From: an uncultured bacterium
Lineage (GTDB): Bacteria; Verrucomicrobiota; Kiritimatiellia; PWTM01
DNA: 62,098 nt
Direction of reading: 5' to 3'
NCBI GenBank assembly: GCA_900661335.1
Contig: CAACVY010000005.1
Location: 1 to 62,098 of the forward strand
This document shows positions 25,181-62,098 of this stretch, piece by piece. How positions within the stretch are numbered: the first letter of the stretch is position 1; each line of letters opens with the position of its first letter. The notes beneath the pieces are model-generated. The model searched no databases, was not told where the DNA came from, and saw only the letters and a list, made by a program, of their open reading frames with translations. The position numbers were made by a program, and so were the translations under genes.

Positions 25181-25205
25181 GGCGCGGAGCGGCACCCCGA
25201 CGACT

Positions 25206-44452: not shown

Positions 44453-44512
44453 GGTACCTCCTTTGCGTGTCGCCCTGAATGCGGCGACCGCACCGTCATC
44501 GCCATCAGGTTT

Positions 44513-46189
44513 TCAGTGCCGAAAAAGAAACTCATCAGAGTTGATCAAAGCCCATGCAACATCATTCCACAGGTCCCGGCCACGGACGAGGCCGCGCCGC
44601 GCGTACTCCTGAAACTTCTTCCGTTCTGCTTCCGCAGGTGGTCGGTTCAAGATGGTCAAGTAAAGATCCGTCAAAATCCCGTCAAAGTCCTTTCCGGGGG
44701 CCGTGGTAAGCACAGCCAGCAGCGGGCTCGATTGGATCTTGTTCTGAATATGGCTGGAGTTTAGCAGATGCATCCATTGAGCAGGCAGCGGCCGGTTGGA
44801 TCGTTCGTTTTCCATTCCGGTGGCACGCGCCGGCCGACCAAACAGCTCAAGGAACGGGCTTGTGATACTCCCGTCGGGGAGACTGACGGCACTCCGGGTC
44901 TCCGGCACGAATGTGAACGGCTCCGGGATCGGACTGGTGTACAGCTCGCGGGTGCCGGTCACCTTGTTGATTGCGTCAATTAGAACTTCCGCCTCCAGCC
45001 GACGCATCGGATAAAAGGCAAATTTCCCCTCGGTGCGGGCAAGGTCATTGGGACCTGCTAACGATGTATGCTGCCAGGTGCGGGAGTTCAAAATGATCCG
45101 GTAGAGGTGACGCGTGTCGTAGTTCGCTCGAATCAGCTCCGACTTCAAGTATTCGAGCAACGCTGGAATCGACGGCGGATTGTCGGGACGAAAGTCGTCG
45201 GGCTCATGAACGATTCCCCGGCCCAAGAGCCATGCCCAAATTCGGTTGGCGATGTTAGCCGTGAACCACGCATTGCTCGGCGTGATTAGCCAGTCCGCGA
45301 AGACTTCCCTCGGGTCGCGGTCGTCGCGCAGCTCGACCTTGGTTCCGTCGGGGAACTCTGCCACCCGTGGGACTGTGACTGCGGCGGCGTTGGTCGTGCG
45401 CACCACGATCCGCTCCGGATCCCAGAACACGATTTCTTCTTTCCATTCCTTAGTCGGTTTGATGCTCAGTTGGCTGAAGAACGCGGCCATGCCGGCCACT
45501 TTGTTGGACGGCCAAGTGTCGAGCCGTGTCCCCATGAACGTCAATGCCACGGCGGTGGCCCATCCTTCCGGCGTGCGATTTTGAACCGCACGGTAGAAGT
45601 TAACCGGGCCGACTCGGAAGTTGCTACCATTGGTGGTCAGCATCTCCCGAACGAACTGCGTATAGGGCTTGTTGAACCGAATGGACTCCCAAACCCACCT
45701 GTGAAAGGCCTGGGCGGCATTGGGCCACAAGTTGACCGGGAACTCCGCTTTGATTCGAAGAATATCGCCCCATTTCATCGCCCAGTAGTCGGCGAACTCC
45801 GGACGATTGAGAACTTGATCGATGAGCTGCGCGCGCTTGGCGGGGTTCGTGTCGGACAGAAACGCGGTCACCTCTGCAGGGCTGGGAAGGACCCCCATGG
45901 TGTCGAGGTACAGCCGTCGGATGAACACGGCATCGGAACAAATGGCCGGCCGTACGCCGAGCTTTTCAAGTTCCGCATACACGATCCGATCGATTTGCGA
46001 CGTCGGAACATTGTCCGAGGTGGCTTCCCAAATCGCCCGATCGATCGGTGGGGGGTTGAAGGTGGGCGGAGCGTTAGGATCGGGACCCCCGAGAACCTCA
46101 ATGGCTGCGCCCGCGAGGACCAGCGCAATCACCATTCGCTCGGTTTGGCGAGCCAAGTCCATTCCGGCAACAGAGAGAACAAGCACCAT
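44513..46189 (-). CDS. DUF1549/DUF1553 (PSD1) domain protein
   Basis: FIRRLYLD..G.LP, ANRIWAWLLGRGIV.EPDDF, RRLEAEVLIDA, FLELFGRP, WALINSDEFLFRH; AAGGAG RBS. Confidence 0.9.
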   Translation of the reverse strand: MVLVLSVAGMDLARQTERMVIALVLAGAAIEVLGGPDPNAPPTFNPPPIDRAIWEATSDNVPTSQIDRIVYAELEKLGVRPAICSDAVFIRRLYLDTMGVLPSPAEVTAFLSDTNPAKRAQLIDQVLNRPEFADYWAMKWGDILRIKAEFPVNLWPNAAQAFHRWVWESIRFNKPYTQFVREMLTTNGSNFRVGPVNFYRAVQNRTPEGWATAVALTFMGTRLDTWPSNKVAGMAAFFSQLSIKPTKEWKEEIVFWDPERIVVRTTNAAAVTVPRVAEFPDGTKVELRDDRDPREVFADWLITPSNAWFTANIANRIWAWLLGRGIVHEPDDFRPDNPPSIPALLEYLKSELIRANYDTRHLYRIILNSRTWQHTSLAGPNDLARTEGKFAFYPMRRLEAEVLIDAINKVTGTRELYTSPIPEPFTFVPETRSAVSLPDGSITSPFLELFGRPARATGMENERSNRPLPAQWMHLLNSSHIQNKIQSSPLLAVLTTAPGKDFDGILTDLYLTILNRPPAEAERKKFQEYARRGLVRGRDLWNDVAWALINSDEFLFRH

Positions 46190-46206
46190 GGTCTCCTTTG
46201 TAAGGT

Positions 46207-46235
46207 ACTATCCTTGCACACCCGCCAGTTGTCAA
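46207..46235 (-). promoter_or_regulatory. Putative sigma70 promoter of the DUF1549-DUF1501-PPC operon
   Basis: TTGACA-N17-GATAGT, followed by AAGGAG and ATG 46189. Confidence 0.5.
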
Positions 46236-46524
46236 CCCTGTCCGACCACATTCGAAACAAAAAGCAGTGCGCGCCAAGGAGGTTGGGTGGGGAACCCAGG
46301 GAAAACGCGCACTGCCGAGCATAGACTACTACACCGCTACGAACTTGTCAACCGGTCAAGCCCGTTTGGTTTTTCTCTCTGGGTGACCCCGTAAGGCTCG
46401 CCAAGTTTTACGAGTACGGGTGCCGAGCGTGTCCTGCCATATTCGCCGGCGGGCGTGCAGGTGAAAAGGGATGCGCGCGGCTACGAGTTCCCCGGCGACG
46501 TGGCCGGCGTAGCACTCGGGAAGC

Positions 46525-48927
46525 TCAGGGGGTTCGGACCGAGGCCAGTGGGCTGGAAGGGGGCGCGACGAACACCTCGCGCTCTTTTCCATGTTCTTGA
46601 AGCCACACTGTCACAGGCCTGGGCTCGTCCGCCAAACGGATCCGAACCACTCCCACGGCGCCCGTGGCCATGAGGTCGATCCATGTCGACTCCTGCGAGA
46701 GCATTCGGACTGGGCCCGGCTCTGGCGTTCCGGTGGGCCACGGACGGATCGCAGTGACGAACCGAATATCTTCGCGCTTTTGGGTTGTCGATGCGCGAAC
46801 GTGCCATTGTTGGAGTTGGGAGCGCCGGGGTGGCGGATCGAATCGGTCAGTTTGCGAGATCTCGATGTCTTGGGGGACAAGAAACTCCAAGCGACACGAG
46901 CCAGACGGACGGGCCAGACGCAACACGGGCCCCGGCCCGATCTCCATGCGAGCCAAACTATGAAACCATGCATCCGCCGTCACCGGGTTGGTGGCGACGA
47001 TGCGGTCGTACAGAAGAATCAGATCAGGCTTCACAAACAGCAGGTACCGTGTAAAGCGTCGTAAGCGGCCTTGGTAGGCTTCCGCCGCCTCTCCGGCGAC
47101 GTAATCCATTGCACGCGAGGTGAAGAAGCCGACGATTTGGCCTTTCGATTCCAGCGACCGCCGCCCTTGGCCTTGGCCGCCATCCAGCGTCACGCTGTTG
47201 ACCGACTTTGTCTCCCACATCCAGTTACGGTGATGGGCGCTGCCATATTGGTCGCGATGACCCGAGGGAATCAGCAGGGCATCCCCATAGGCGTACAACA
47301 CGAAACTGTTTTGAGCGTCGTATCCGTGACTATGGGTACCCATGGGCGAACTCTTGAAAATGATCTGCACGTCGTTCGACGCGTGGAGCAGGGTCGTGTG
47401 CAACGCCGCCTGACCAATGCCTCGAAATACGATGGACGTCGGCAGATTCGTGGGCACCTTGGCCACCACGGGAGGACGGGCGCCGCGTACGAGGCGCACG
47501 TAGGCGCTGGGGCCGCTGGCCAGCGCTTGGGGCTTCGGGGGCCAGTCGCAGGTTTGCTCAGCATACCATTGCCAATAGGGGTTTCTTGCAAGCGAGGCGA
47601 ACTCTCCGACCAGCTCGCCAATGGCCATGCTGGGCCGGCGATCGCAAAGGTCCCCCATGCCCATCCAGGGGGCTCCAGGAGGCGCGATGTAAATGGGAAA
47701 CCACCCCACGTTCGCAAAGAACGGCAGGCGGAAGAGGTCCACACCGATCGCGACGCGAAACGCATCGGCCCACCAGGTGAACCGTTGCATGTAGCTGTGC
47801 CAGTACGAAAGTCCTTCGTGCCATCCTCCGTCTTCATCGTTCCACACCGGGTAGGTACAGAATTGCTTCAACAACACGAACTCCATCCAATCGCGCGTGT
47901 CGGGGATTTCGCGCCAGAACGCGATCGTGGCCTCCCCGAGCTTGTGCCAAGCGCGGTTCTGATGGCTTTCATACGGCGTCCACAGTTGGCGTGGACACAA
48001 GTGACGGTACATTTCGGTGCTACGGATGCGAATCACCTCGCGACACCGTGCGCGTTCCGCCTCGGACAACCAAGGGTGGACGTACGTGTACGCTCGAGCG
48101 AAGTAGTACACAAAGGGCATACCAGCTTCGTCGTTGTAGCGATACCCCGTGCTGCCAGTCGGGTCCCACCCGGCCGCTGCGAGCAGCCAGGCTCGTGCCG
48201 TTTGCGCATAGTGCTCAGGTGCCCCAAGTCGCCATGCGAACGCAAGCGTCGCCGCGCCATCCAACAACGCAATCGTCGCTTCTCGGTTGCCCCACCAGAT
48301 CTTCATCCACTCGTCGCTTTCCCTGGGCAAGTCCGGCGGGTAGAGCGGCGGTTCGTTCGTGGAAGGTGGGCGCTGAAGCAAGCGCTCGCACCGTTGCGTG
48401 AATATTGCCCATTCTGCAGCGCGTTCGGTGCGGATAAATTCGCGCAATTGAGGCAGAAACTCCGGCCGAAGAAACAGGCGTGGATGCTCCGAGGGGATCT
48501 TGCGGTCCACTTCCTCCAACGTCGGCATGGGAACCACGGGGGCGGTGGCGGGTAGGGTAAAGGACCGCGCTTGGCTCCATTCGGACGTCTCCCCGAGGGA
48601 CGTCACGAAACGGAATTGCCAGGTCCATACCCCGGGGGCGAGCGGTTGACTTGGACACGTGGCGTTCCAGCGCAAGTTTTGAAGATAAGTGACCGTTCCC
48701 GTGCTGCCCGACTGCCCCGGCCCGATCAACTTGAGCTCGTAGCTGACCGCCGTGCGTTGAGGTCGCCAAACAAAGGGCGGGGGATTGCGGCGCACAACGG
48801 CGTTGTTTTCTGGGCGAACCCCCCATTCACCGGGTTGGGCAGGTCTCTCGTCTGGAACCAGTGCAGCCCACGCACTCCACCCGACGCACAGTACGGTGCA
48901 TCCCATAAGCTTTCGCCGCTGTCTCAC
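46525..48927 (-). CDS. Heparinase II/III family polysaccharide lyase with DUF4962-type N-terminus
   Basis: NPPPFVW, HPRL, YESHQ, DGGWHEG..YW, SHGYDAQNSF, YGSAHH; AAGGAGG RBS before GTG 48927. Confidence 0.82.
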   Translation of the reverse strand: MRQRRKLMGCTVLCVGWSAWAALVPDERPAQPGEWGVRPENNAVVRRNPPPFVWRPQRTAVSYELKLIGPGQSGSTGTVTYLQNLRWNATCPSQPLAPGVWTWQFRFVTSLGETSEWSQARSFTLPATAPVVPMPTLEEVDRKIPSEHPRLFLRPEFLPQLREFIRTERAAEWAIFTQRCERLLQRPPSTNEPPLYPPDLPRESDEWMKIWWGNREATIALLDGAATLAFAWRLGAPEHYAQTARAWLLAAAGWDPTGSTGYRYNDEAGMPFVYYFARAYTYVHPWLSEAERARCREVIRIRSTEMYRHLCPRQLWTPYESHQNRAWHKLGEATIAFWREIPDTRDWMEFVLLKQFCTYPVWNDEDGGWHEGLSYWHSYMQRFTWWADAFRVAIGVDLFRLPFFANVGWFPIYIAPPGAPWMGMGDLCDRRPSMAIGELVGEFASLARNPYWQWYAEQTCDWPPKPQALASGPSAYVRLVRGARPPVVAKVPTNLPTSIVFRGIGQAALHTTLLHASNDVQIIFKSSPMGTHSHGYDAQNSFVLYAYGDALLIPSGHRDQYGSAHHRNWMWETKSVNSVTLDGGQGQGRRSLESKGQIVGFFTSRAMDYVAGEAAEAYQGRLRRFTRYLLFVKPDLILLYDRIVATNPVTADAWFHSLARMEIGPGPVLRLARPSGSCRLEFLVPQDIEISQTDRFDPPPRRSQLQQWHVRASTTQKREDIRFVTAIRPWPTGTPEPGPVRMLSQESTWIDLMATGAVGVVRIRLADEPRPVTVWLQEHGKEREVFVAPPSSPLASVRTP

Positions 48928-49322
48928 CTCGTACCTCCTTGGTCCGGCGATTTCACTGGGCCATGCGGCCGCAGTCGCCGAACTCGTCTTGGCATGGCGG
49001 AAACCTACCATGTCACAGGTGCTACGTCCATCCTATGCGGCGGACCTGATCCGCCGGGCCTGGTACCCGGGGGTTCGTGTTGAGGAAACTTTGCGTACAA
49101 TACATAGGCTTGGACGTCGAAACCAGGCTCTCGAGCCGCTCGGTAACTGAAGCTACTGGACCGCATCCGCTGAAGAATTACGAGTTCGTTCCAAGCAAGT
49201 AAGCCCGTCGAGCGTGCCCGAGATCATGATGTTCTTGCCGAAACTCTTTCCCAGCGGCCGGTCGGTTGTCCGAACCTATCCTTGTCGAGGCCACGCGAGA
49301 CGTTTACGATACGGAGATACTG

Positions 49323-50738
49323 ATGAGAGGCCGACATCGAGATTCGTTCGATGTGCTGTGCAGTACGATCGCCGTTGTCGCGGACGCCCTGGCCGTGTTT
49401 TTGGGTGTACTGGCAGCGGTCTGGATTCGTTTCGATTCCGGTTGGCTGGCCGTGCCCCTCGGCCACCCACCGCGAGACATGTACGTCTACGCCGCTGGGG
49501 TTCTGGCCGTACTGTACGTGTTCATCTTTCACTCCGTCGGCCTCTACCGCCGACCTCAGGACGGCCACTTCACCGACAAGATCCCACGCTTAGTGCGAGC
49601 TTGCGCCCTGGGTGCGTTGCTCTCCACAGCGTTGGCTTTCGTGATTCGGACGGAGCCGCCGTTTTCACGCGTAGCGGCGGCCATTGCGTTTGTCACGGTG
49701 ACCGCGTTCGTCTTGGTGGAGCGGAACATCCTGTTCCAGTTAGAGCGTCACTGGGCGCGCCACCAAGCCCGGCATCGCGCGGTGGTGATCATCGGCTGTA
49801 CGCCGTTGGCCGTGCAGTTGCGGGACACACTTCACCGGGAACCCCGCCACCGTGCCCGAGTCGTCGGCTTCGTTCGTATCGGCGAGGAAGCCCCAGATTC
49901 TTCGATCCCCTCCGATCAAATTCTCGGCTCGCTCTCCGAGTTGCCCGCGATTCTCGACCGATGGAATGTAGACGAGATCATCGTGGCCAACCCATCCACG
50001 ATTGCGGCCGAGCAGCTGGAAGACATTTTATTGGAAACCCAACGCCGTTTGATCCAGTTCCTCATGGTTCCGGATACGTTCCGATTGCTGACCAGCCGGG
50101 TTGAACTTCAGCAGTTTGGGGAGTTCGCCCTTCTGGGCATGGCGCCCTGGCCTCTGGACTATTTTTGGAATCGCGTGTTGAAGAGGTTGGAGGACATCGT
50201 GGGCGCAACGATTGGCTTGCTGTTGTCCGCGCCTATTTTGCTGATCGCCGCGATTGTGATTCGGCGAACTTCCCCCGGGCCGGTGTTCTATCGCCAGGTT
50301 CGGTGCGGAGAATATGGGCGGCCGTTCGTACTATACAAGCTCAGAACCATGGTCGTGGACGCCGAGGCAGAGACCGGGCCGGTGTGGGCGAGCCCTGACG
50401 ATCCTCGGCGCACACCATTTGGCGCATTTCTCCGGCGCTGGAACTTGGACGAGCTGCCGCAGTTTTGGAATGTGTTTCGAGGCGACATGAGCCTGGTAGG
50501 TCCGCGACCAGAGCGCCCGGAGTTCGTGGAAAAATTCAAAGACGAGATCGGCCGCTACATGTGGCGCCACGCCGCCAAACCTGGCATGACCGGCTGGGCT
50601 CAGATTCACGGGCTGCGTGGTCAAACGGACTTGCGCGAACGCATTCGCTACGACTTGTGGTATCTCGAGAATTGGTCCCTCGCGTTGGACTTCAAGATCT
50701 TGGCTCGGACCTTGACCGCGCGAGCCAACGCGTATTGA
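49323..50738 (+). CDS. Undecaprenyl-phosphate glucose phosphotransferase (WcaJ/GumD type)
   Basis: N-terminal TMs, KRLEDI, PVFYRQ.R.G, LDELPQFWNVF.GDMSLVGPRPE, KPGMTGWAQI, YDLWYLENWS. Confidence 0.93.
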   Translation: MRGRHRDSFDVLCSTIAVVADALAVFLGVLAAVWIRFDSGWLAVPLGHPPRDMYVYAAGVLAVLYVFIFHSVGLYRRPQDGHFTDKIPRLVRACALGALLSTALAFVIRTEPPFSRVAAAIAFVTVTAFVLVERNILFQLERHWARHQARHRAVVIIGCTPLAVQLRDTLHREPRHRARVVGFVRIGEEAPDSSIPSDQILGSLSELPAILDRWNVDEIIVANPSTIAAEQLEDILLETQRRLIQFLMVPDTFRLLTSRVELQQFGEFALLGMAPWPLDYFWNRVLKRLEDIVGATIGLLLSAPILLIAAIVIRRTSPGPVFYRQVRCGEYGRPFVLYKLRTMVVDAEAETGPVWASPDDPRRTPFGAFLRRWNLDELPQFWNVFRGDMSLVGPRPERPEFVEKFKDEIGRYMWRHAAKPGMTGWAQIHGLRGQTDLRERIRYDLWYLENWSLALDFKILARTLTARANAY

Positions 50739-51232
50739 CTGGCACGGTCTCCACGCTTTGCGATACGGTGGGACCTAGCCGACGTTGTATGGTTCAGCTT
50801 CGCACTGACTTGGCAGGAAGCCGATTCTGTCCCCGCTTGGCGGCGCCCCGCCCACCGCTCGGCGCCCTGTGAAAACAGTCACCTCGGCGCTGGGACGAAC
50901 GTGAACCTTGTGGCTGTTCGCGATCCCGAGCTTCTCCGGGCCGTCGCAAGGTCCCGATTCTAGCGAGGTGCGGGTCGGCCTTTGGCTGATCGCAACGCCT
51001 TGAGCTGTTCGAGTTGAGGATTCAGCGGGCTGTCGCACCTCCGGCAAACCGCTCCCGAGAAACGCGGGACTTGACATCGTCGTGGCGGCTGGTGACACCG
51101 TGGACCTTACAACGTAGAGCGTGCGTTTGACAAAGACACGGACAACTGAGTGCCTCGATCGGTTGGAACTGTTGGGCCGTCCCAGTGGGAGCCGCGTAGT
51201 GGGTGCCCCCGAGAGTCGCTTTCGGCCTAAGC

Positions 51233-51934
51233 TCAGAAATTGGTACGGAACGAGAGCGTAAACAACGACCGGCGGTGATAGACATAGTCGGGAAGTACTC
51301 GGTCGTTGATCTGGATCACCCGCAAGCCGGACAGCGCCAGGAAACGGTAGGGTATGGTCAGGCCCACGGCGGCGTGTGAAAACCCCGTCGCTCGTTCGCG
51401 CGAATAGCGCCAAGCGATCGTTCCGGTCAGTCGAAGGCGAAGTTGCTCATCGAACCACGCCCATTCGTGCGCCAAGGAACCCTAGTTCGTGACGGACGAG
51501 CCCGTCCACCCCTCAAAAAACGCCGTTACGGTGGGAGATAACGGAAGGTTTGGTGCGGCGGAAAGACTCACTTCTCGGTCTGGCCCGGAGTCCGCGTGAT
51601 GATACAGGTACTCGACCACCCCACGTTGACCCGCAGCGCGTCGAAAGGCACGGAGTGGGAGACTGACAAAGCCACCTACGTGAACTCGCCTTGTGGATAT
51701 TGACCGCGATCTGAAACGCGGGCGATGTTCCCCTACATTCCGAGGATCAGCGCGGGCCACGGCTGCAATTGAACCGATGGTTGGGCCATAGGACTGTCCA
51801 CGGCGGTAGCGCCTCGAAAGATGTATGCGTTCGCAAGGTCCACGGCCGCGCTCCCCTGGAGGTGACCATGTACTCTGGTTGGCAAGAGTAAGTAAGGGAA
51901 GAATTCCGGGCACGCAGACGTGTCTCACCCTCAT
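51233..51934 (-). pseudogene. TorF-family putative porin pseudogene
   Basis: AAGGAG+ATG 51934 and signal peptide; shifted frame reads AVDLANAYIFRGA..DSPMAQPSV..LGM*GN..GEFT*V; then VEYLY; TAG at 51482; ends in a beta-strand with terminal Phe (LSFRTNF). Confidence 0.7.
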
Positions 51935-51994
51935 TCCGGTGTTCTCCTTGTGCCACGAATTGCTAGCTATTGGGTTGTACCTAGGTGTTTGTCG

Positions 51995-52336
51995 TCAGCC
52001 GATCGCGGTCCCGCTTCGTTCCCCGGTTCGGATACGAATACATTCCAACAGATCGGCGACGAAGATTTTTTCATCGCCGATTCGTCCGGTGCGCGCACCG
52101 CGGATAATCGCGTCGATCGTTGGTTGGACAAAGTCCTCGTTGACGGCGACGTCAAGCCGCACCTTCTTGATGAGTTTCACCTCAGTGATCGCGCCTCGGT
52201 ACGCTTCGGTGTAGCCCATCTGCTGGCCACAACCGATGACATTACTGACCGTCATTTTGAAGACCTTGGCCTCGAACAATGCGGCTTTGACGTCGGGTAG
52301 CTATTCCGGCCAAATGATCGCAGTGATCAATTTCAT
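51995..52336 (-). pseudogene. glnK: P-II nitrogen regulator, nonsense mutation at codon 12
   Basis: [19 protein letters not shown]...[14 protein letters not shown]...[11 protein letters not shown]; TAG at 52301-52303. Confidence 0.9.
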
Positions 52337-52364
52337 TTTGGACTCCTTTCGTTAGAAAGCTGGT

Positions 52365-53721
52365 TTACTTGGTCACGAAGCTTTGGAACTCCGGATAGGC
52401 TTCCATGCCGTGCTTTTGGAGGTCGAGCCCAAGGATCTCCTCCTCGCGGCTCACCCGCTGCCTGAGCGTCATGCGAAGGGCAGCGAAGACCGGGCCAGAG
52501 GTCAAGAGGCATGCGACGCCAACCGCAACGATTCCAATCAGTCGGAGGAGGACGGCCGGATCTGGTCCGAATATGCCCGTGGCCAAGTTGCCCCAAATCC
52601 CGCAGACCAGATGGACCGACACCGCGCCCACGAAATCATCCGCCCGCAGACAATCCCAAAAGAGAACCGAGAGCACAACTAGAATTCCGACGATCATGCC
52701 GATCAAGATGGCGGCCGGCACCGAGACGACATCCGCGCCCGCCGTAATGCCCACCAAACCTGCCAAGATCCCGTTCAGTACCACGGTGGGGTCTGGCTTC
52801 GTTTGGAGGATCCACGAAGTGACCATAGGACCTATGGCGCCCGTTGCCGCGGCTAAGTTGGGCGTGACCAAGACGTACGACACGGCGCCCGGATCAGCGG
52901 AAAGAACGGAACCTCCGTTGAATGCGACCCAACCAACCAAAGAAAAACACACCGATCGTTACTTAAGGCGGGTTGTGGCCCATGACCGGATTAGTATGCC
53001 GTTGACGTACTTGCCTGACCGTGGGCCCACCACGGTGGCCCCCCACCAGTGCGGCCCAGCAGCCAACGGGGTCGACAGGAGTAGACCCGGGGAAGTCGTG
53101 GAACCCTAGCGACTTTAGCCGACCCCCTCCCCAGGCCCATGAGCCTCTCCATGGGTAGACTAGAGCCACATAGACGCTCGAGAAAATCAGGAAACTCATG
53201 AGCCGGATCCGTTCGCAGACGGCGCCGGAAACGATCGTCGTCGCTGTGGCCGCGAACATCGCTTAGAACAGGAAGTCCGTCCAGTACGTGTAGCCCGGGT
53301 TGTACGCGCTAGTCACTTCTTCTGGCCCGGTGCCGATTCCGAACCCTGCGAACCCGAGAAGCTTGCCCACCCACCAGTGATCGCTCGGATACATCAGGCC
53401 GAAGCCAATGACGGCATAGGTGATCAGACCGATCGCAGGGATCATGGTGTTTTTGAACAAGATGTCTACGGCGTTTTTGGCACGGTTCAGCCCGGCCTCT
53501 ACCGTTACGACTCCCAGGTGCATCAGGAACACCAAAAGAGTGGCCACCATCATGCACAGTGCAGTCCTGGCGGTCTTTGTCGCGTCAGGATCGACCGGAC
53601 TCTTTGCCTTTGCCTTAGCACCTTGGGTCCAGGTCGCTCCGTTGGGCGGCTCGTGGGCGGTGAAAACGAGCAAAGATGGCCCCAGGTGGCCGGGCGGGGA
53701 GCAGCCCTTCTGTAGCGACAT
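52365..53721 (-). pseudogene. amtB: Ammonium transporter pseudogene
   Basis: LVFLMHLG, KNAVDILFKN, DFLF*AMFAATATTIVSGAVCER, HDF, FNGGS, LAGLVGITAG, VHLVCGIWG; TAA at 53263 and 52963 plus frameshifts; start uncertain. Confidence 0.92.
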
Positions 53722-53860
53722 TTTTGTCGGACGTCTGGGGGGCTGTCCGACATTTTTGTTGCACCGTGTGTTGCAGCGGGCCGCGAAACGGATTGATCAT
53801 ACGGCGAATTAGGCCTAGGGGTGACATTAGCGCGCTTCTAGCGTAGACTGTAAAGTCAAT

Positions 53861-55333
53861 ATGAGCCAGCGACCGTCCAGCTGGGTTCCGACTTACTGCG
53901 GTCTTCGAGCGGACCGCCCGGTCCACCATTGTGGGATCGTGGGTGTGGTGGGCGTAGAGCGAGTGGCCGACGTGATTGCGCGGGCCCTCATGGCGCTCCA
54001 GCACCGGGGGGAAGAAGGCGCGGGGATCGTCGTCAGCGATGGCGAGGTCCTCCATGCGGTTCGAACTGCCGGCCTGGTGTCCGACCTGCTCGATCATCAC
54101 CGAGATGAGCTGGCCCGCCTCCACGGAAGGGTGGGGGTGGGTCACGTGCGATATTCGACAACGGGAGCATGGGATCTCCGCAATGTTCAGCCGCTGGTGG
54201 TGGAGTGCCAAAGTGGCATGTGGGCCTTGGCGCACAACGGAAATCTGACCAACGCAGGGGCTCTGCGGTCCCAGTGGCAGAGCCGGGGGGCCATTTTCCA
54301 AACGGGCACCGATACAGAGGTGTTGCTTCACATGATCGCGCACCCTCGGTTTGCGCGCCAGCCGCAGCCAGTGGTCGCTGCGTTACAGGCCTTGCGCGGG
54401 GCGTTTTCGATGGTGTTGGTTCACAAGGACCGTTTGATTGCGGCGCGGGACCGGCACGGATTCCGGCCGTTAGCACTCGGGCGCTTGGGCTCCGGATACA
54501 TCGTGGCGAGCGAGACATGTGCGTTTCCCCAAGTGGGCGCGACGTTTCTTCGCGAGATCGAACCTGGCGAGGTGTTGGTGTGGGAGGGATGCGAGCTGCG
54601 TCAATATGCGTTGACCGCCCGACCCGCGCGCGGGGGGCAATGTGTGTTCGAGCATATTTATTTCGCCCGCCCGGATAGCGTGCTCTTTGGGCGGAATGTG
54701 CACGAGGTTCGGGTGGCACTGGGACGGCAATTGGCCGAGGAACGACCGGTAAAGGCGGACGTCGTGGTTCCGATTCCGGACAGCGGGTTGCCCGCGGCTA
54801 TGGGCTTCGCTCAGGCCTCTGGGATTCCCATGGACCTGGGGTTCATTCGGAACCACTACATCGGCCGCTCCTTTATTCGCCCCACTGCGGAAGACCGCGC
54901 ACGCGTGGCGGATCTGAAGCTTGCGGTCGTAGAGCACGTGGTTCGGGGGCGTCGGGTCGTGGTGGTGGACGATTCGTTGGTGCGGGGCACCACCGTACAA
55001 CGGCGCGTTCAGACCTTGCGCAAGGCGGGCGCCATCGAGGTCCATTTACGAATTGCGTCTCCTCCGATCCGTTGGCCATGTTGGTTCGGGATCGATTTCC
55101 CTACTCGCGGAGAACTGATTGCAGCTGACCGCACAGAGGAGGAGATCGCTCGGATTGTCGGAGTGGACTCGTTGGGGTACTTGAGTCTGGAAGGGTTGGC
55201 CCGGGTGCTGAACGGCGGCCGGGACTACTGCTTCGGTTGCTTTACGGGACGGTATCCGGAGCGCGTCGCTGGAACGCCCAGCAAACTAGCGTTTGAGGTC
55301 ACCGTTGCGAAAGGAACATGCGGATCCATATAA
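53861..55333 (+). CDS. purF: Amidophosphoribosyltransferase
   Basis: CGIVG N-terminal nucleophile, LQHRGEEGAG, GHVRYST, HNGNLTN, VVVDDSLVRGTT, CFGCFTGRYP; uninterrupted. Confidence 0.96.
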   Translation: MSQRPSSWVPTYCGLRADRPVHHCGIVGVVGVERVADVIARALMALQHRGEEGAGIVVSDGEVLHAVRTAGLVSDLLDHHRDELARLHGRVGVGHVRYSTTGAWDLRNVQPLVVECQSGMWALAHNGNLTNAGALRSQWQSRGAIFQTGTDTEVLLHMIAHPRFARQPQPVVAALQALRGAFSMVLVHKDRLIAARDRHGFRPLALGRLGSGYIVASETCAFPQVGATFLREIEPGEVLVWEGCELRQYALTARPARGGQCVFEHIYFARPDSVLFGRNVHEVRVALGRQLAEERPVKADVVVPIPDSGLPAAMGFAQASGIPMDLGFIRNHYIGRSFIRPTAEDRARVADLKLAVVEHVVRGRRVVVVDDSLVRGTTVQRRVQTLRKAGAIEVHLRIASPPIRWPCWFGIDFPTRGELIAADRTEEEIARIVGVDSLGYLSLEGLARVLNGGRDYCFGCFTGRYPERVAGTPSKLAFEVTVAKGTCGSI

Positions 55334-55337
55334 GAAG

Positions 55338-58300
55338 ATGGCCCCAGCGCCCCAACCTTTGATCCCTCGATGTGGAGCGCGAGGCTTGCGGTGTGGGATT
55401 GGTGGCACGCCTTAGCAGCGAGCCATCCCACGAGGTGATCCGAAAAGTGATCGAGATTTTGAGCCGACTCGCCCACCGTGGCGCGCGTGGATGTGGCGAG
55501 AACACGGGCGACGGTGCAGAGTTGATGGTCCAGGTATCGGGCCGATTCTTCCGCAACGTATTCGACGGGCAGGGGCGCTGCCGCCCGCGAGGTCGTACGC
55601 CGCGGGACAACTGTTTCTTCCGACGCACCCTGACCACCGAGCCACCGCATGCGAGACGTTGGCTTTGTGCTTGGAAAGTCAGGGACTTCCGGTCCTAGGC
55701 TGGAGGGGCCTACCCACGCAGCCAGGCGTACTCGGCCCGGTCGTACTTGCAGGCCGCCCTGCGGTGGTCCAGGTGTTGCTGGGCTCAGGAGCAGCTCGAG
55801 ACGAACGCGAGTTCGAACGACGGTTATTTGTAGCACGGAAGAAGTATGAGCGTCTTGCGCGTAATCGGCCATGACCCGAGAGCGATCGAACGCACGTGTG
55901 CAGTTGATCCCCACGGACTATTTGGACGCCATCCGGGAGGAGCTGGTCACTTCTAAGTGCTTAGGGGCCCAAGGGGCGCCGCATAAAGAATCGGAGACAG
56001 CCGTCCGACAATTACGGATCGACCATCCCATTAGATTTCCACAAAATGGCCCGGTTGCGTGGCTTGGATTTGCCGAGGCTGCGCGCGCATACGCTTGTGA
56101 TCCGATGTGAACCTGGTGGGGGCGAGGCGTTGGAACGGGTATTGGACGTGCCGGCGCATCGAGCGCCAGTTCCGCTGGGCGTACCCGACGACGACTCGCT
56201 CACGCAGCTGAACGTCGGCGGAATTTACAAGTGGCGTCAAACTGGCGAGCGTCACCTCCTGCAGCCGTTGGTCATCGCGCGTCTTCAACAGGCAGTCCGC
56301 AACGGGATGAGGCGGCATTTCAGGAATACTGCGAGTTGGTCAACTCCGATGCCAGCCGGTGCGTGACCTTGCGGAGCTCTCTGACGTTTCGAGAAGACCT
56401 GTCGAGGGCGGTTCCGTTGTGAACGAAGTGGAGCCGTGGACGTCCATCGTCCGACGGTTCAAATACGGCGCTATGTCGCTTGAATCGTTGGAGCCAGGAG
56501 GCGCACTGAACGTTGGCGATCGCCATGAACCTGATCGGGGGACGAAGCAACTCCGGTGAGGGGGGGGGGAAGATCCCGACCGGTATCGTCCGTTGCCCGA
56601 TGGCACCTTCCGCCGCAGTGCGATCTAGCAGGTCGCGTCGGGTAGGTTCGGCGTGACGATTGAGTACCTGGTGAACGCACGCGAGCTCCCAATCAAAATT
56701 GCTTAGGCGGCGAAGCCAGGCGAGGGCGGTCAGTTACCGGCGGAGAAGGTGTACCCGTGGATCGCCAAGGTGCGACATTCAACGCCGTGGGTGCAGATGA
56801 TTTCTCCACCGCCGCACCACGAAATTTGCTCGATCGAGGACCTGGCACAGTTGATCCACGATTTGCGTAACGCCATACCCGATGCTCGGATCAGCGTGAA
56901 ATTGGTGGCGGCGGTTGGGTGGGAACTGTCGCGGTCGGTGTGGTCAAAGGGCATGCGGACATGGTGCTGATCAGTGGGTACGATGGACCGGCGCGTCGCC
57001 GGAGTCGCCCCTCAAGCACGCAGGAATTCCCTGGGAGCTTGGACTATCCGAGACTCCCCACGCGTTGGTGGCCAACGAGCTGAGGGATCGGATTTCGGTC
57101 GAATGCGATGGCAAGCTTCTTACGGGCCGCGATATTGGATCGCATGTCTTCTCCGCGCAAAAGAATTTGGATTCGCGACGGCCCCGTTGATTACCCTGGG
57201 GTGCGTCATGATGCGCGCCTGCTACTGGAATACGTGTCCGGTAGGCGTGGCAATAGCGAACCCAGATCTGCGGCGCAAGTTCGTCGGTCGCCCCGAGCAC
57301 GTGGCGAACTTTTTCCGGTTCATCGCGGAGGATTTTCGCCGGTGGATGGCCCGATTGGGGTATCGGACGGTGGACGAAATGGTGGGCCAGAGTCACCGCC
57401 TGGAGTACCAGCCACCGGAATCTCATTGGAAGGGGCGACAATTGGACTGGAAACTGATCATCGAGTTTCCGCCGGCCCCTTCGGAGGGGAACGGCGATGT
57501 GTGTGGCAGGTTCCGTACGCACCCAACGCCCGCGTGGATGAAGAGCTCATGCGCATAGCCGCGGCTGCGCTCCAGTTTGGGAAACGGTCGCCGGTTGAGC
57601 TGTCGGTGGCCATGCGCAACTCCGACTGGGCGGTGGGGACGCCATTAAGCGGCGAAATCGCGCGGCGATGGGGTGGAAAGGGATTGCCCGAAGACACCAT
57701 CGCGGTGCATGCCCATGGCGTGGGAGGTCAGTCGTTCGCCGCGTTTCGAGCTCCCGGATTGACGTTTCATCGCGAAGGTGTGGCCAATGAATACTTTGGC
57801 AAAGGTCTATCTGGGGCGAAGCTAACCGTTCGGCCACCCCGCGGGATCCGGTACCGAGCCGAGGACAACATCGTGGTCGGTAACGTGGCGTTCTATGGCG
57901 CGGCGGCGGGCGAATGTTACGTTCGCGGGGGAGCCGGCGAATGGTTTGCGGTGCGGAATTCGGAGGCGCGGGCCGTGGTGGATGGCGTGGACGATCATGG
58001 TTGCGAGTGCATGACGGGCGGGATCGTTGTGGTGCTCGGCTCGACGGGGCGAAACTTCGCGGCCGGGATATCGGGCGGGTTCGCGTTTGTGTACGACGCC
58101 GACGGAAAATTCCCCATGCGGTGCAACATGGACATGGTGACGCTCGAGCCGATCGAAGACAAAGAAGACATTCGCAACGTTTTGTACCTATTGCGTCAGC
58201 ACCTTCTGTACACGCAGAGTGAGATCGCCGCCCACACCCTAGCCCGTTGGGATGCGTTGCGTCCGCGATGGGTAAAGGTATTTCCGAACGATTACCGTCG

Positions 58301-58370
58301 TGCGTTGGAACTGATGCGCGCCGTGGCGATGAGCCCCGAAGGGGCGCCGGTCTTGGTGGAATTGGCATGA
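55338..58370 (+). pseudogene. gltB: Glutamate synthase large subunit, heavily decayed
   Basis: Fragments in several frames: EREACGVG..HRGA..TGDGA; SAI*QVASGRFG; [13 protein letters not shown]; ISPPPHH; GCVMMRACYWNTCPVG; GXGXG domain; total about 3.0 kb. Confidence 0.92.
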
Positions 58371-59849
58371 GGGAAACCGGCCAAGGGAAAACCGATTGGA
58401 TTTTTGAGTACGCTCGCGAGTTGCCGCCGAAGCGGCCGGTCTCGGAATGTATCCAAGACTTTCGAGACATTCCGCTCCCTTTTTCCAAGGAGAAGGCAGG
58501 GCAGCAAGCAGCTCGGTGCATGGACTGCGGGCTCCCTTTTGTCACTCCGGATGTCCCCTTGGGAACTTGATTCCGGAATGGAGCGACTTGGTTTGGAGAG
58601 GCAAGTGAGAGGAAGCGGCGCGACGCCTGCATGCGACGAATAAGTTCCCCGAATTCACCGGACGGCTGCGCCCAGCTCCGTGTGAGGAGGCATGCGTGCT
58701 CGGAATCAACGAGCCTCCGGTGACGATCGAGCAGATCGAGTACGAGATTGCCGAACGGGCGTTCGGTGAAGGCTGGCTGCGGCCGATGCCTCCTCAGGGA
58801 CGAACAGGGAAACGCATCGCCGTGATCGGTTCGGGGCCAGCTGGGCTCGCCTCCGCGCAGCAGTTCAACCGCGCAGGGCACGAAGTGGTCGTCTTTGAGC
58901 GGGCTGACCGGATCGGTGGTCTACTGCGGTATGGAATACCGGACTTCAAGCTCGAGAAATGGGTCGTGGACCGTCGCTTGGCGTAAATGGAAGACGAAGG
59001 TGTGCAGTTTCGAACGAGGGTGGATGTTGGACGCGATGTCACGGCGGACGATCTGCAAGCCATATTCGATGCGGTGGTGTTGGCGACGGGGGCCACGCGG
59101 CCGCGCGATTTGAATGTCCTGGGGCGGTCGCTGGCCGGAATCCACTTTGCCGTGGACTGTCTCACCCGGCAGAACCGGGTCGTAGCAGGCGACCTTCCGG
59201 AGCCACCAAGTACGGCTCAGGGCAAGCGGGTCATCGTGATCGGCGGCGGAGATACCGGGAGGGATTGCATCGGCACGGCGATCCGACAGGGGGCGGTGTC
59301 GGTGCTGACTTTCGAGTTGTTACGCGGTCTTCCTCGCACCGATCCCGCACCAACCGTGGCCGTTCTATCCTATGCGGCTGCGAACGAGTACGTCTCCCGA
59401 GGAAGGGGGCGAACGGTTGTTTGCTGTGACCACGAACGAGTTCATCGGCTCAGCCGGGCGAGTCGAAGCGGTTCGCACCATGGACGTACGGGCGAAGCTA
59501 CCGAAACCCGGGGAGCGGTTTCCCTCGTTGGAAGAGGTGCCCGGGTCCGAGCGGCTGTGGCCAGCCGAATCTTGTGATCGTGGCGTTGGGGTACTTGGGC
59601 CCGGAGGCCGACGGCATCGTAGCCCAACTGGGTGTCGAACTGGACCCTCAGGGTAACCTCCGGACTTCGAACGGGTTTGCGACCAACGTCCCCCGTGTAT
59701 TTGCGGCAGGCGATACGAGACGAGGGCAGTCACTCATCATTTGGGCGATAGAGGAGGGGCGGGATTGCGCGCGAGCGATGGATGCACATCTTCGAGGCGG
59801 TGATTCCATCTTGCCCTCCCGTGGCCACGGTGGTCTGCCCCGGGCGTGA
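58367..59849 (+). pseudogene. gltD: Glutamate synthase small subunit, decayed
   Basis: [37 protein letters not shown] at 58984, IGGGDTG, FAAGDTRRGQSL; several frameshifts. Confidence 0.92.
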
Positions 59850-59865
59850 CTGCGGCCGCGGTGGT

Positions 59866-60861
59866 TTAAGAATTTAAGGAGCCACCGCGCTCGGATACGC
59901 GACAGACCTGAAGCGAGTTCGTCTCGGGGTTCCACTCCACGATAACTCGACCTCGGGGGGACATTCCCATGGCCTGGGCTGGATGATCCGACGCCATCGC
60001 CCAGACCGTTTCTAGCGGGAGTCCAGTGAACCGACACGTGTTGGCGATCGCTTGTTCCATCGTCAAGGAGGATCCTGCCAAGGTGGTACGATCGGGCAAG
60101 GTGACGCGTCCGTCAGTCATTCGCCAGATGGTCAAGTCCCCCACAGTGTACGACCCCGGTGGTGCGTTGGCGGCCGCGACCGCGTCGGTCACGAGGATGC
60201 AGCGCGATGGTGTTTTCGCGCGGACCATGACTTTGACCGTTTCGGGGGGCAGGTGAATGCCGTCCACGATCAGGCCGGCCCAGAGGCGGTCCTCGGCGAG
60301 TTGGGCCCAGAGCAAGTTGGGATGGCGGGGTAGGAGACGAGCGCATCCATTGCCGAGGTGGGTCGATATGGTTGCGCCTGCGCCGACTGCATCCGCGATC
60401 TGTGCCGGCGTGGCATCCGAATGGCCAATGGCCACTCGAACGCCCGAAGCCACTGCGCGTTCGATGAACTTGAGTGAATTGGGAAGCTCCGGGGCGATCG
60501 TGACTAAACGGATGTGGCCTCCGGCGCATTCTTGCCGTCGTTGAAAATCCTCCCATGATGGCGGCTGGACGCAATCACGGCGGTGAGCACCGCGCGGTCC
60601 ATCCGCAGGGTTGATGTAGGGGCCTTCCATATGGATTCCAACCACCGCGGGATTTTGTGCGGCGACGATGGTACGCGCGCACCGAGCAAAATCATCGAGC
60701 GGGCTGGTGATCAAGGTGGCCAACCACGCAGTGACGCCGGCTTCGTGCATCTTCTCGGCCGCTCGGTGCACGTCTTCTGTGGTTAGCCTCGGGCAGTTGA
60801 AGTCCACCCCAGCGTAGCCGTTGACTTGAAGATCGAACAACCCTGGGCCTTCGTATCGCAC
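59866..60861 (-). CDS. nagA: N-acetylglucosamine-6-phosphate deacetylase
   Basis: DLQVNG, IHMEGP, RGAH, TIAPE, GHS, THLGN, DGIH, LAGSSL. Confidence 0.9.
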   Translation of the reverse strand: MRYEGPGLFDLQVNGYAGVDFNCPRLTTEDVHRAAEKMHEAGVTAWLATLITSPLDDFARCARTIVAAQNPAVVGIHMEGPYINPADGPRGAHRRDCVQPPSWEDFQRRQECAGGHIRLVTIAPELPNSLKFIERAVASGVRVAIGHSDATPAQIADAVGAGATISTHLGNGCARLLPRHPNLLWAQLAEDRLWAGLIVDGIHLPPETVKVMVRAKTPSRCILVTDAVAAANAPPGSYTVGDLTIWRMTDGRVTLPDRTTLAGSSLTMEQAIANTCRFTGLPLETVWAMASDHPAQAMGMSPRGRVIVEWNPETNSLQVCRVSERGGSLNS

Positions 60862-60870
60862 GGAGTGCTT

Positions 60871-61635
60871 CTAGGGGACGTCGATCATGGGGGTGGACTG
60901 GAGGAGCGATGAACTCTCCGTGTCCAAGTAAATTTCCACCTCGGGGTGCATGCGCAACGCGGACGCGGGCGCCATGGGCGAAATGGGTCCTTCCAAGCAG
61001 GCGCGGACGGCCTCCGCTTTTCGCGCCTCGGGGACGATGCAAAGAATTCGCTTTGCTTTCAGGATTTGCCGGATGGTCATTGAGATGGCTCGTCGGGGCA
61101 CGGCGTCTAGGTTCGGGAACCAGCCCTCGTTGACTTGTTGCTGGCGGCACCGCTCATCGAGATCTACGATCTTGTACGGTTCCTCAGTATCGAAGTCGGC
61201 GGGAGGGTCGTTGAAAGCCAGATGGCCGTTTTCGCCGATTCCTACGAATGCTACGTCGACGGGCTCCTCCTGGAGACGTTGCCCAATCCGCCGACATACC
61301 GTTACCGGATCGGCCACATCCCCATCCAGTAGATGGCTCCGCACGATTCCCGCCGGCCGGATCAGGCGCTCCAGAAGGTAGCGCCGGAAACTGGCAGGAT
61401 GGTGCATGGGAAGACCCAAATATTCGTCGAGATGGAACATCTCCACTCGGGCCCAATCGATGCCGGGTTGGCGCACGAGGGCGGCCAAAAAATCGAACTG
61501 CGATGCGCCAGTGGCCGCAATGAAACGCGGAATACGGCGTTCTGTTTGGGCTGCTCTCAAGATTTCAGCGGCGCGTTCCGCAGCGGCCGGACCCATCCGG
61601 GTACGGTCACGGAACCTCCAGACTTTCATGGGCAT
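60871..61635 (-). CDS. nagB: Glucosamine-6-phosphate deaminase
   Basis: [40 protein letters not shown]. Confidence 0.9.
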
Positions 61636-61910
61636 GGCTCTCCTGCGGCGACACTTATAGCATGTCGAAGGTTCGGAACAAACACCATCGAAGAAGCGGC
61701 CGGCAAACTGCCTGAGGTTGCGCCCCTACAGGGCTAGGGCGACAATACCAACGCAGCGACGCTGAGCGTACCGAATGATTCTGGCACTTGGGCTGCCCCA
61801 TAGGCCTTGGCCGCGCGTCATGGCCGGGAGTCAACGGAACCGCGGCGGAATAGCTGGCGAAGAATCGCGTTGCGAACGCCTGGAATGGATCTAGCCAGGA
61901 GGTATGGCGG

Positions 61911-62098
61911 ATGATAGAGCCGTGGTTGTGCAGCGTCGGGCTCATGCTCTGCGCGCGAGGAGAACGCGCGGCCCTGAGGTTCCAGACCTTGTGGAAGGAA
62001 GGTCCAACTGGGTACCCTTTGATCGTCGCTCACCGTGGCGCGTCGTACGTGGCGCCTAAGAATACTTTGTTGGCCTTCACGAAGGCGCTGGACATGGG
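61911..62098 (+). CDS. Glycerophosphodiester phosphodiesterase-family protein, 5' part (truncated by the window end)
   Basis: AGGAGG RBS, ATG 61911, [20 protein letters not shown]; absent from the supplied ORF track. Confidence 0.7.

What the first reader, a model, noticed from the sequence alone, without database searches (positions are those of the whole stretch)
51233..59849. Whole ammonium uptake/assimilation island pseudogenised around an intact purF
Seen: amtB, glnK, a TorF-like porin, gltB and gltD each carry nonsense codons and/or frameshifts, and conserved residues have drifted (GlnK IRP>IWP and GDGKIF>GDEKIF; first AmtB His motif VH>VD). purF in the middle and the other housekeeping CDSs in the window read through intact. 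Established: AmtB-GlnK plus GOGAT is the high-affinity route for ammonium assimilation. Inference: a coordinated, lineage-specific loss of selection on low-ammonium assimilation, implying a nitrogen-replete niche or reliance on amino acids or GDH. This catches a metabolic module in the act of being lost.
Basis: partly seen in the sequence, partly recalled or inferred. Interest (0 to 1): 0.7.

Follow-up and report, generated by a model that had tools for sequence, protein, structure and literature searches.

The report
Decaying ammonium-assimilation genes around intact purF
In a single-cell genome of a deep-aquifer Kiritimatiellia bacterium, the ammonium transporter, its PII regulator, a partner porin and both glutamate synthase subunits are real, neutrally decaying pseudogenes flanking an intact purF, an ordinary kind of gene loss that recurs across this bacterial class.

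Summary
Window 51236-59849 holds five pseudogenes around an intact purF: a TorF/Gcw_chp porin, glnK, amtB, gltB and gltD. Together they carry 13 in-frame stops and about 27 frameshifts, and gltB has also lost about 1.5 kb.

The genome is the single amplified genome AH-151-A22, from a 752 m, 57 C anoxic aquifer. A second sorted cell (AH-151-K23) is 100% identical across the 3' part of gltB and all of gltD. A Logan assembly is identical across the whole island, so the lesions are not assembly artefacts.

A sister lineage (PurF 91% identical) has intact gltB and gltD in the same context, but lacks amtB-glnK-porin at this locus. On the window's branch, changes in gltB and gltD are flat across codon positions, with 78 and 34 amino-acid changes against 4 and 4 in the sister. 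That is neutral decay of roughly 5-7% divergence.

No second amtB, PII or gltB copy exists in the 68-69%-complete assembly. NADP-GDH and a type III glutamine synthetase are intact.

Across 120 high-quality Kiritimatiellia genomes, GOGAT is missing in 14, and 13 of those also lack AmtB. Canonical PII disappears with AmtB, and GDH is always kept. This is a known kind of event, caught mid-way. The niche explanation is untested.

The parts
51236..52020 (-). Pseudogene of a small outer-membrane beta-barrel of the Gcw_chp/TorF family, third gene of the amtB-glnK-porin operon. It carries 2 TAG stops and about 6 frameshifts. The C-terminal ...LSFRTNF end is preserved.
   Evidence: Frameshift-aware alignment to the G002 orthologue. 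The orthologue lies directly after glnK in G002 and G006. Homologues L055, L051 and L057 pass PF09694.
51995..52336 (-). glnK (PII) pseudogene with one TAG at codon 12 (window 52303) and GDGKIF>GDEKIF. It is the only PII gene in the assembly.
   Evidence: PF00543 at 82 bits with 1 TAG. It is 85.8% identical to G002 GlnK.
52368..53769 (-). amtB pseudogene with 2 TAA stops (53265, 52965) and 4 frameshifts (53043-52936). The first twin-His histidine is replaced by Asp.
   Evidence: PF00909 matches in two pieces with stops. Alignment to G002 AmtB.
53564..53860 (.). The amtB 5' leader and purF spacer. It is the only part of the amtB side still shared with the sister lineage (69% identity), and homology ends where the AmtB domain begins.
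   Evidence: blastn and local alignments of L126/L209 against the window.
53861..55333 (+). Intact purF (amidophosphoribosyltransferase, 490 aa), first gene of the ancestral purF-gltB-gltD array.
   Evidence: TIGR01134 at 490 bits, covering 1-432/432. dN/dS against the sister is 0.107, with symmetrical, third-position-dominated change.
55318..58367 (+). gltB (GOGAT large subunit) pseudogene with 6 stops, 12 frameshifts, a 987-bp deletion (junction 55920-55922) and a 518-bp deletion (junction 56148-56159). About 1010 of 1525 codons are left.
   Evidence: Alignments to G001 GltB and to the sister's GltB. PF01645 matches in pieces with stops. A 7-bp direct repeat, GGCGCAT, flanks the second deletion in the sister.
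58383..59849 (+). gltD (GOGAT small subunit) pseudogene with 2 stops (58606, 58984) and 5 frameshifts.
   Evidence: Alignments to G001 GltD and to the sister's GltD. The sequence is identical in a second single cell.

Best explanation
These are five genuine pseudogenes left after selection on high-affinity ammonium assimilation was lost in one deep-subsurface Kiritimatiellia lineage.

The ancestor carried a conserved nitrogen neighbourhood, amtB-glnK-porin next to purF-gltB-gltD. After the split from a still-GOGAT-positive sister lineage, the window's lineage stopped needing active ammonium uptake, its PII partner, the associated outer-membrane channel and the ATP-consuming GS-GOGAT cycle. The genes then drifted neutrally. 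They accumulated GC>AT-biased substitutions, stops, 1-2-nt indels and repeat-mediated deletions, amounting to roughly 5-7% neutral divergence. purF, embedded between them, stayed under purifying selection.

Inferred: the cell now makes glutamate with NADP-glutamate dehydrogenase or from imported amino acids. It makes glutamine with its remaining type III glutamine synthetase, and it has no canonical PII signalling.

Shown: the lesions, their neutrality, their lineage specificity, the absence of other copies in the assembly, and the presence of GDH and GSIII.

Inferred: the selective cause (enough ammonium or amino acids, and/or energy limitation that favours the ATP-free GDH route) and the order of loss.
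For: Lesion maps.

The sequence is identical in a second sorted cell and in an independent assembler's contigs.

The sister lineage L126/L209 has intact gltB and gltD in the same context.

Polarised changes, with G001 and G002 as outgroups:
- gltB on the window's branch: 56/46/45 by codon position (p=0.47) and 78 aa changes. On the sister's branch: 11/5/30 and 4 aa changes.
- gltD on the window's branch: 15/17/18 and 34 aa changes, against 4 in the sister.
- purF control: 3/7/23 against 4/3/29, with 5 against 4 aa changes.

With G006 as outgroup, excess amino-acid divergence is 14 points for amtB, 7 for gltB, 6 for the porin, 3 for gltD and glnK, and 1 for purF.

There is no other amtB, PII or gltB in the assembly.

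GDH (NF006929, 791 bits) and a 773-aa open GSIII frame are intact.

The genome is not decaying as a whole. Stretches of at least 1.5 kb without an ORF of at least 200 aa total 41 kb, or 1.6%. Window neighbours are full length.

Class survey:
- GOGAT+/AmtB+ 90, GOGAT+/AmtB- 16, GOGAT-/AmtB+ 1, GOGAT-/AmtB- 13 (Fisher p=9e-9).
- No canonical PII in 23 AmtB-less genomes.
- GDH present in 15/15 GOGAT-less genomes.
Against: - The SAG is only 68-69% complete, so an intact or horizontally acquired amtB or gltBD in the unsampled third cannot be excluded.
- The amtB-glnK-porin half is supported only by this cell's assembly and a Logan assembly that may come from the same reads.
- No ammonium measurement for the BLM1 water was found, so the ecological cause is conjecture.
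- Other pseudogenes exist in this genome, in earlier notes and as the RHS remnant in the window, so some general relaxation of selection cannot be ruled out.
- The class-wide 2x2 table is not phylogenetically corrected.
- Pairwise dN/dS alone does not discriminate: intact nagA gives 0.24, against 0.25 for gltB.
Confidence: 0.82

Rival explanations
1. The broken genes are redundant. An intact or horizontally acquired amtB/glnK/gltBD set sits in the roughly 31% of the genome that the single-cell assembly missed, so the organism has not lost the pathway.
For: Completeness is 68.3-69%. G000's only glutamine synthetase (on C17) is a different GSIII paralogue from the island-linked one in the sister and in G006 (62% against 72% identity). 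Paralogue turnover therefore does happen at this locus.
Against: The remnants occupy the ancestral syntenic position. G001 and G002 have a single amtB, a single PII and a single gltB. No trace of a second copy appears in 2.63 Mb. Complete loss of the same genes is common in high-quality genomes of the class.
Confidence: 0.07
2. The lesions are artefacts of whole-genome amplification, sequencing or assembly of a single cell.
For: The source is an MDA-amplified SAG. Reads could not be inspected. Two other assemblies break contigs inside the gltB remnant, at 56332 and at 57145-57174.
Against: The sequence is 100% identical in a separately sorted, amplified and assembled cell for gltB-3' and gltD, and in Logan contigs for the whole island. 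About 40 lesions plus roughly 200 polarised substitutions are confined to five dispensable genes, while purF, nagA and nagB beside them are clean. One deletion lies between 7-bp direct repeats. For contrast, the error-type pattern is seen in G004, where purF itself is frameshifted and nothing is deleted.
Confidence: 0.02
3. The island is only the most visible part of genome-wide erosion, from small population size or relaxed selection in the deep subsurface. It is not a module-specific loss.
For: Earlier notes report a decaying sulfatase gene, a frameshifted TPR gene and an ORF-poor 2-kb stretch elsewhere in this genome. There is an RHS-core remnant at 11.9-12.1 kb in this window.
Against: ORF-poor stretches make up only 1.6-3.7% of the assembly, and that figure includes rRNA and small-gene clusters. 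All sampled neighbours are full length. The five dead genes are functionally linked, and the same set is co-lost in other lineages.
Confidence: 0.05
4. The trigger was the loss of a shared transcriptional activator or signal for nitrogen-starvation genes, not the habitat. That loss silenced the whole regulon and made all five genes neutral at once.
For: Lesion densities of the five genes do not differ significantly (frameshifts p=0.26, stops p=0.92). gltB and gltD have almost equal neutral loads, at 7.8% and 7.0% of codons.
Against: No regulator was identified or examined here. amtB shows about twice the excess amino-acid divergence of gltB. The sister lineage lacks amtB-glnK-porin at this locus but keeps gltBD. 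Class-wide, there are 16 AmtB-less/GOGAT-positive genomes against 1 of the reverse. Those three points argue for stepwise rather than simultaneous release.
Confidence: 0.1

Closest known systems
Reductive loss of the AmtB-GlnK / GS-GOGAT high-affinity ammonium route, with reliance on GDH. This is established physiology (GDH is used at high ammonium, GS-GOGAT at low). A free-living precedent for life without PII is Candidatus Pelagibacter ubique (PMC3870248).
   Same: Loss of the ammonium transporter partner and of PII signalling in a free-living bacterium. GDH and a glutamine synthetase are kept. The genes are dispensable in some habitats.
   Different: Here the genes are still present as datable pseudogenes, an intact sister lineage is available, and GOGAT itself is lost (SAR11 keeps gltBD and amtB). 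The habitat is a hot, anoxic continental aquifer, not the surface ocean.
Classical bacterial pseudogene decay, with GC>AT mutational bias, small indels and deletions between short direct repeats, as described for host-restricted pathogens and symbionts (from my own knowledge).
   Same: Substitutions are flat across codon positions. The GC>AT excess is about 3:1. There is a mix of 1-2-nt indels and larger deletions, one of them between 7-bp repeats.
   Different: The decay is confined to one functional module in an otherwise well-maintained genome of an apparently free-living organism.
The conserved amtB-glnK operon, and in PVC bacteria the larger amtB-glnK-Gcw_chp porin-purF-gltB-gltD neighbourhood (loci L051 and L055 here).
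   Same: The gene content is the same as the intact clusters. The order within each half is also the same.
   Different: In the window the amtB-glnK-porin half is inverted relative to purF, and every gene except purF is dead.

Membership tests
Ammonium transporter AmtB/Mep/Rh (PF00909) | Sequence match to the family model over its length | tested here: met
   Two pieces score 144 and 134 bits and together cover model positions 2-399. The remnant is 63.6% identical to G002 AmtB over 462 codons.
Ammonium transporter AmtB/Mep/Rh (PF00909) | Uninterrupted reading frame with the twin-His pore pair | tested here: not met
   There are 2 TAA stops and 4 frameshifts. The first His is Asp (VDPVGC) and the second His is retained. 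This is a pseudogene, not a functional member.
PII signal protein GlnK/GlnB (PF00543) | Full-length match, intact frame, T-loop Tyr and the GDGKIF motif | tested here: not met
   The match is 82 bits over positions 1-102 and the T-loop Tyr is present. However, there is a TAG at codon 12 and GDGKIF has become GDEKIF.
Gcw_chp / TorF-family putative porin (PF09694, TIGR02001) | Match to the family model | tested here: inconclusive
   The remnant itself gives no hit. The G002 orthologue scores 23.4 bits against a cutoff of 24, and its TIGR02001 hit is E=0.003, below cutoff. Homologues in the same operon position pass at 36.7, 30.3 and 42.4 bits (L055, L051, L057).
Glutamate synthase large subunit GltB (GATase_2, Glu_syn_central, PF01645, GXGXG) | All four domains in one open frame of about 1500 aa | tested here: not met
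   Residues 202-530 and about 610-786 of the sister protein are deleted, and there are 6 stops and 12 frameshifts. PF01645 matches only in pieces with stops.
Glutamate synthase small subunit GltD | Open frame of about 490 aa collinear with orthologues | tested here: not met
   It is collinear over 485 codons and 87.8% identical to the sister. It carries 2 stops and 5 frameshifts.
Amidophosphoribosyltransferase PurF (TIGR01134) | Score above the equivalog cutoff, full-length coverage and an open frame | tested here: met
   490 bits against a cutoff of 350, covering model positions 1-432/432, in a 490-aa ORF.
Pseudogene (unitary, from relaxed selection) | Disabling lesions relative to intact orthologues in the syntenic position | tested here: met
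Pseudogene (unitary, from relaxed selection) | Neutral substitution pattern on the affected branch only | tested here: met
   This was tested for gltB and gltD: flat codon-position spectrum, and 78 and 34 aa changes against 4 and 4 in the sister. For amtB, glnK and the porin it could only be tested with distant outgroups.
Pseudogene (unitary, from relaxed selection) | No functional product (transcript or protein) | not testable with these tools

The most novel reading that the evidence does not exclude
In Kiritimatiellia, ammonium assimilation may be dismantled along a repeatable, ordered path. The AmtB-GlnK-porin uptake unit goes first, taking all canonical PII signalling with it. GOGAT follows, and GDH is always kept.

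On this reading, the window and its sister lineage are two successive frames of that path. The co-decay would also mark the Gcw_chp/TorF barrel as a dedicated outer-membrane ammonium channel.
Probability: 0.45. Interest if true: 0.5.

Novelty: new member of a known kind. Interest (0 to 1): 0.35.

Why it matters
This is a clean, datable example of a metabolic module being lost in an uncultured deep-biosphere bacterium, with an intact sister lineage available as a control.

It predicts a physiology: no high-affinity ammonium uptake, no PII signalling, and glutamate made by GDH. That bears on how nitrogen and energy budgets shape life in hot, anoxic aquifers.

The class-wide nesting of GOGAT loss within AmtB/PII loss gives three leads:
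- a testable rule for reading nitrogen metabolism from PVC metagenome bins;
- a functional lead for the uncharacterised Gcw_chp/TorF porin;
- a small neutral-evolution ruler (GC>AT about 3:1, implying an equilibrium GC near 33% against a genomic 62%) for a lineage where mutation spectra are otherwise inaccessible.

None of this is mechanistically new.

Tried and rejected
- A codon/dicodon HMM meant to census frameshifts genome-wide had too little signal, at 0.11 nats per codon. It only gave an uninformative 17.7% 'non-coding' fraction. I replaced it with a crude ORF-desert count.
- G004 first looked like a parallel decay of amtB, PII and gltB. I rejected this because its purF is also split over five frames with nothing deleted, which is the pattern of an indel-error assembly.
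- Pairwise dN/dS against the sister was not discriminating (gltB 0.25, intact nagA 0.24). The polarised branch test was used instead.
- I tried to order the deaths of the five genes by lesion density. There was no significant heterogeneity.
- No remnant of the island-linked GSIII was found in the window.
- Rfam found no RNA element in the window.
- Literature searches for BLM1 ammonium chemistry, and for the sources of Ga0272449 and ERR3094551, found nothing usable.


Full report
**What the window is**

The window is contig C18 of a 2,632,675-bp, 137-contig assembly. Its size, contig number and largest contig match Table 1 of Sackett et al. 2019 (PMC6424206) for single amplified genome AH-151-A22. 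[quoted passage not shown] The water was 57 C and anoxic, in a carbonate aquifer. The reported 68-69% completeness is therefore single-cell incompleteness, not necessarily decay.

**Checking the observation**

ORF lists show long open frames across most of the window, but only fragments at 50.7-53.8 kb and 55.3-59.9 kb, on either side of a 490-aa ORF at 53861-55333. I aligned intact orthologues from same-genus genomes G001 and G002, and later from a closer sister lineage, to the DNA with a frameshift-aware dynamic programme. The results were:

| Gene | Window position | Lesions |
|---|---|---|
| amtB | 53769->52368 (-) | 2 TAA stops, 4 frameshifts, first twin-His histidine now Asp |
| glnK | 52336->51998 (-) | one TAG at codon 12, GDGKIF>GDEKIF |
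| porin | 52020->51236 (-) | 2 TAG stops, about 6 frameshifts |
| gltB | 55318->58367 (+) | 6 stops, 12 frameshifts, deletions of 329 and about 175 codons |
| gltD | 58383->59846 (+) | 2 stops, 5 frameshifts |

purF matches TIGR01134 end to end. Ten other window genes have complete domain coverage.

Position 9 of GlnK is Q in relatives, so 'IRP>IWP' is not drift at a residue conserved in this genus.

The porin label holds through orthologues. The G002 orthologue is marginal for Pfam Gcw_chp (23.4 against a cutoff of 24 bits). Homologues in the same operon slot pass at 30-42 bits.

**Are the lesions real?**

Three other lines of evidence apply:
- Logan contigs of run ERR3094551 are 100% identical to window 43861-57174 and 57145-61866.
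- Contig CAACVW010000010.1 belongs to AH-151-K23, a different sorted, amplified and assembled cell. It is 100% identical to window 56332-62098, which covers the 3' half of gltB and all of gltD.
- The pattern is biological. Lesions are confined to five genes while purF, nagA and nagB beside them are clean. One deletion lies between 7-bp direct repeats, GGCGCAT.

The contrast is genome G004, where purF itself is split over five frames with nothing deleted. That is what assembly indel errors look like.

The amtB-glnK-porin half is supported only by this cell's assembly plus the Logan contigs.

**Are these the ancestral copies?**

- G001 and G002 have intact purF-gltB(1557/1555 aa)-gltD(488/497 aa) in the same order.
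- G002 and G006 have amtB-glnK-porin as a unit.
- Loci L051 and L055 carry the whole array amtB-glnK-porin-purF-gltB-gltD collinearly, and 77 of 160 purF-centred PVC loci have gltB adjacent.
- Six-frame HMM and tblastn searches of the whole assembly find no other amtB, PII or gltB.
- G001 and G002 have one of each.

The remnants are therefore unitary pseudogenes in the ancestral position, not dead duplicates. The unsampled third of the genome remains a caveat.

**A sister lineage dates the decay**

A JGI contig (L126, Ga0272449_1009234) and a 29.8-kb ENA contig (L209, ERZ27247226) are 99.97% identical to each other. They encode a PurF 91% identical to the window's.

L209 reads NAD synthase <- GSIII <- | purF -> gltB (1525 aa) -> gltD (489 aa) -> | <- nagA <- nagB. 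All of these genes are intact, and the array is collinear with the window from 53564 to its end at 84-91% nucleotide identity. The exceptions are the two blocks deleted from the window's gltB.

I polarised changes using G001 and G002 as outgroups:

| Gene | Window branch, by codon position | Window aa changes | Sister branch, by codon position | Sister aa changes |
|---|---|---|---|---|
| gltB | 56/46/45 (flat, p=0.47) | 78 | 11/5/30 | 4 |
| gltD | 15/17/18 | 34 | 7/1/10 | 4 |
| purF (control) | 3/7/23 | 5 | 4/3/29 | 4 |

In the initial comparison against the shorter sister contig L126, gltB showed 65 against 4 amino-acid changes. That asymmetry differs from purF's 5 against 4 (Fisher p=0.005).

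gltB and gltD have thus evolved neutrally on the window's branch, with near-equal loads (7.8% and 7.0% of codons). This corresponds to roughly 5-7% neutral divergence, or about a quarter to a half of the time since the split (dS 0.19-0.48 depending on the gene).

The spectrum is GC>AT-biased: 125 against 38 for the two genes combined, mostly C>T and G>A. That implies an equilibrium GC near 33% in a 62% GC genome.

**The uptake half**

The sister has no amtB, glnK or porin at this locus. It keeps only the roughly 300-bp amtB leader/purF spacer, and homology ends at 53564, exactly where the AmtB domain starts. This fits a deletion from a G006-like order, amtB-glnK-porin-GSIII.

Using G006 as outgroup, the window's excess amino-acid divergence is 14 points for amtB, 7 for gltB, 6 for the porin, about 3 for gltD and glnK, and 1 for purF. 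Lesion densities do not differ significantly between genes, so the order of death cannot be settled from this genome alone.

**What remains**

An intact NADP-specific glutamate dehydrogenase lies at C53:4311-5651 (NF006929, 791 bits). An open 773-aa GSIII frame lies at C17:13766-16087. That GSIII is a different paralogue from the island-linked one of the sister and of G006 (62% against 72% identity).

The genome as a whole is not eroding. Stretches of at least 1.5 kb without an ORF of at least 200 aa total 41 kb (1.6%), and that figure includes rRNA and small-gene clusters.

**Class-wide context**

I surveyed 120 other Kiritimatiellia genomes, 118 of them at least 90% complete and at most 5% contaminated:
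- 14 have no Glu_synthase domain and 29 have no AmtB.
- The 2x2 table is GOGAT+/AmtB+ 90, GOGAT+/AmtB- 16, GOGAT-/AmtB+ 1, GOGAT-/AmtB- 13 (odds ratio 73, Fisher p=9e-9, not phylogenetically corrected).
- The GOGAT-less genomes span at least 8 families.
- None of 23 AmtB-less genomes has a canonical PII; five have only weak 28-36-bit PII-like hits. The single GOGAT-less genome that keeps AmtB also keeps GlnK.
- All 15 GOGAT-less genomes tested (the 14 from this survey plus G005) keep GDH.

So the same module is lost repeatedly, and GOGAT loss is nested within AmtB/PII loss. The sister lineage looks like the intermediate state, though only this one locus is known for it. The window is the end state in progress.

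**Verdict**

This is relaxed-selection decay of the high-affinity ammonium-assimilation module, with GDH and GSIII left in place.

Three things are not shown:
- the ecological cause, because no ammonium data were found;
- the absence of a copy in the unsampled part of the genome;
- read-level support for the amtB half.

It is a well-documented instance of a known kind of event. It has some added value as a dated, two-stage snapshot and as a lead on the Gcw_chp porin. It is not a new mechanism.

Noticed in passing
window 11350-12970 (core motif at 11873-12136, + strand): A stretch of about 1.6 kb has no ORF over 110 aa. It contains an RHS-core signature (...YGYRWYDAASLKWLTPDPIGGRGG...), probably a remnant of a polymorphic-toxin cassette.
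   Followed up: partly
window 25065-26933 (+): A 622-aa protein carries HATPase_c plus the Topo-VIb transducer domain, so this bacterium has a topoisomerase VI B-subunit homologue. The upstream overlapping ORF at 23552-25180 may be the A subunit.
   Followed up: no
window 55318-59846, polarised against L209 and G001/G002: The neutral substitutions in the two GOGAT pseudogenes are strongly GC>AT-biased (125 against 38, mostly C>T and G>A). This implies an equilibrium GC near 33% in a 62% GC genome from a 57 C habitat.
   Followed up: partly
G000 C17:13766-16087 (-) against L209:2291-4480 and L041:2236-4413: There are two GSIII paralogue lineages. The island-linked copy of the sister and of G006 (72% identical to each other) has no orthologue in this assembly. 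The only GS found in this assembly is 61-62% identical to them. The island-linked GSIII may also have been lost, or it may be unsampled.
   Followed up: partly
L051:6601-17500 and L055:7333-17698: Some Kiritimatiellia/Verrucomicrobiota MAGs carry a collinear six-gene array, amtB-glnK-Gcw_chp porin-purF-gltB-gltD. The uncharacterised small beta-barrel is consistently the third gene of the amtB operon.
   Followed up: partly
G004 C1:248520-256040 and C2:633230-634850: This 4-contig, '65% complete' genome has purF, gltB, gltD, amtB and glnK all split over several frames with nothing deleted. That is typical of uncorrected long-read indel errors. Its low completeness score is probably an artefact of these errors.
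   Followed up: partly
window 56332 and 57145-57174: Contigs of two other assemblies of this population (SAG AH-151-K23 and Logan ERR3094551) end inside the gltB remnant. The K23 contig also bridges the end of C18 to contig C103 of this assembly.
   Followed up: no
window 15040-16455 (-) against 15136-16461 (+): A full-length 471-aa antisense ORF shadows the hflX-type GTPase gene and has a similar GC1/2/3 pattern. Codon-usage signal in this genome is weak (0.11 nats per codon), so composition-based gene calling is unreliable here.
   Followed up: no
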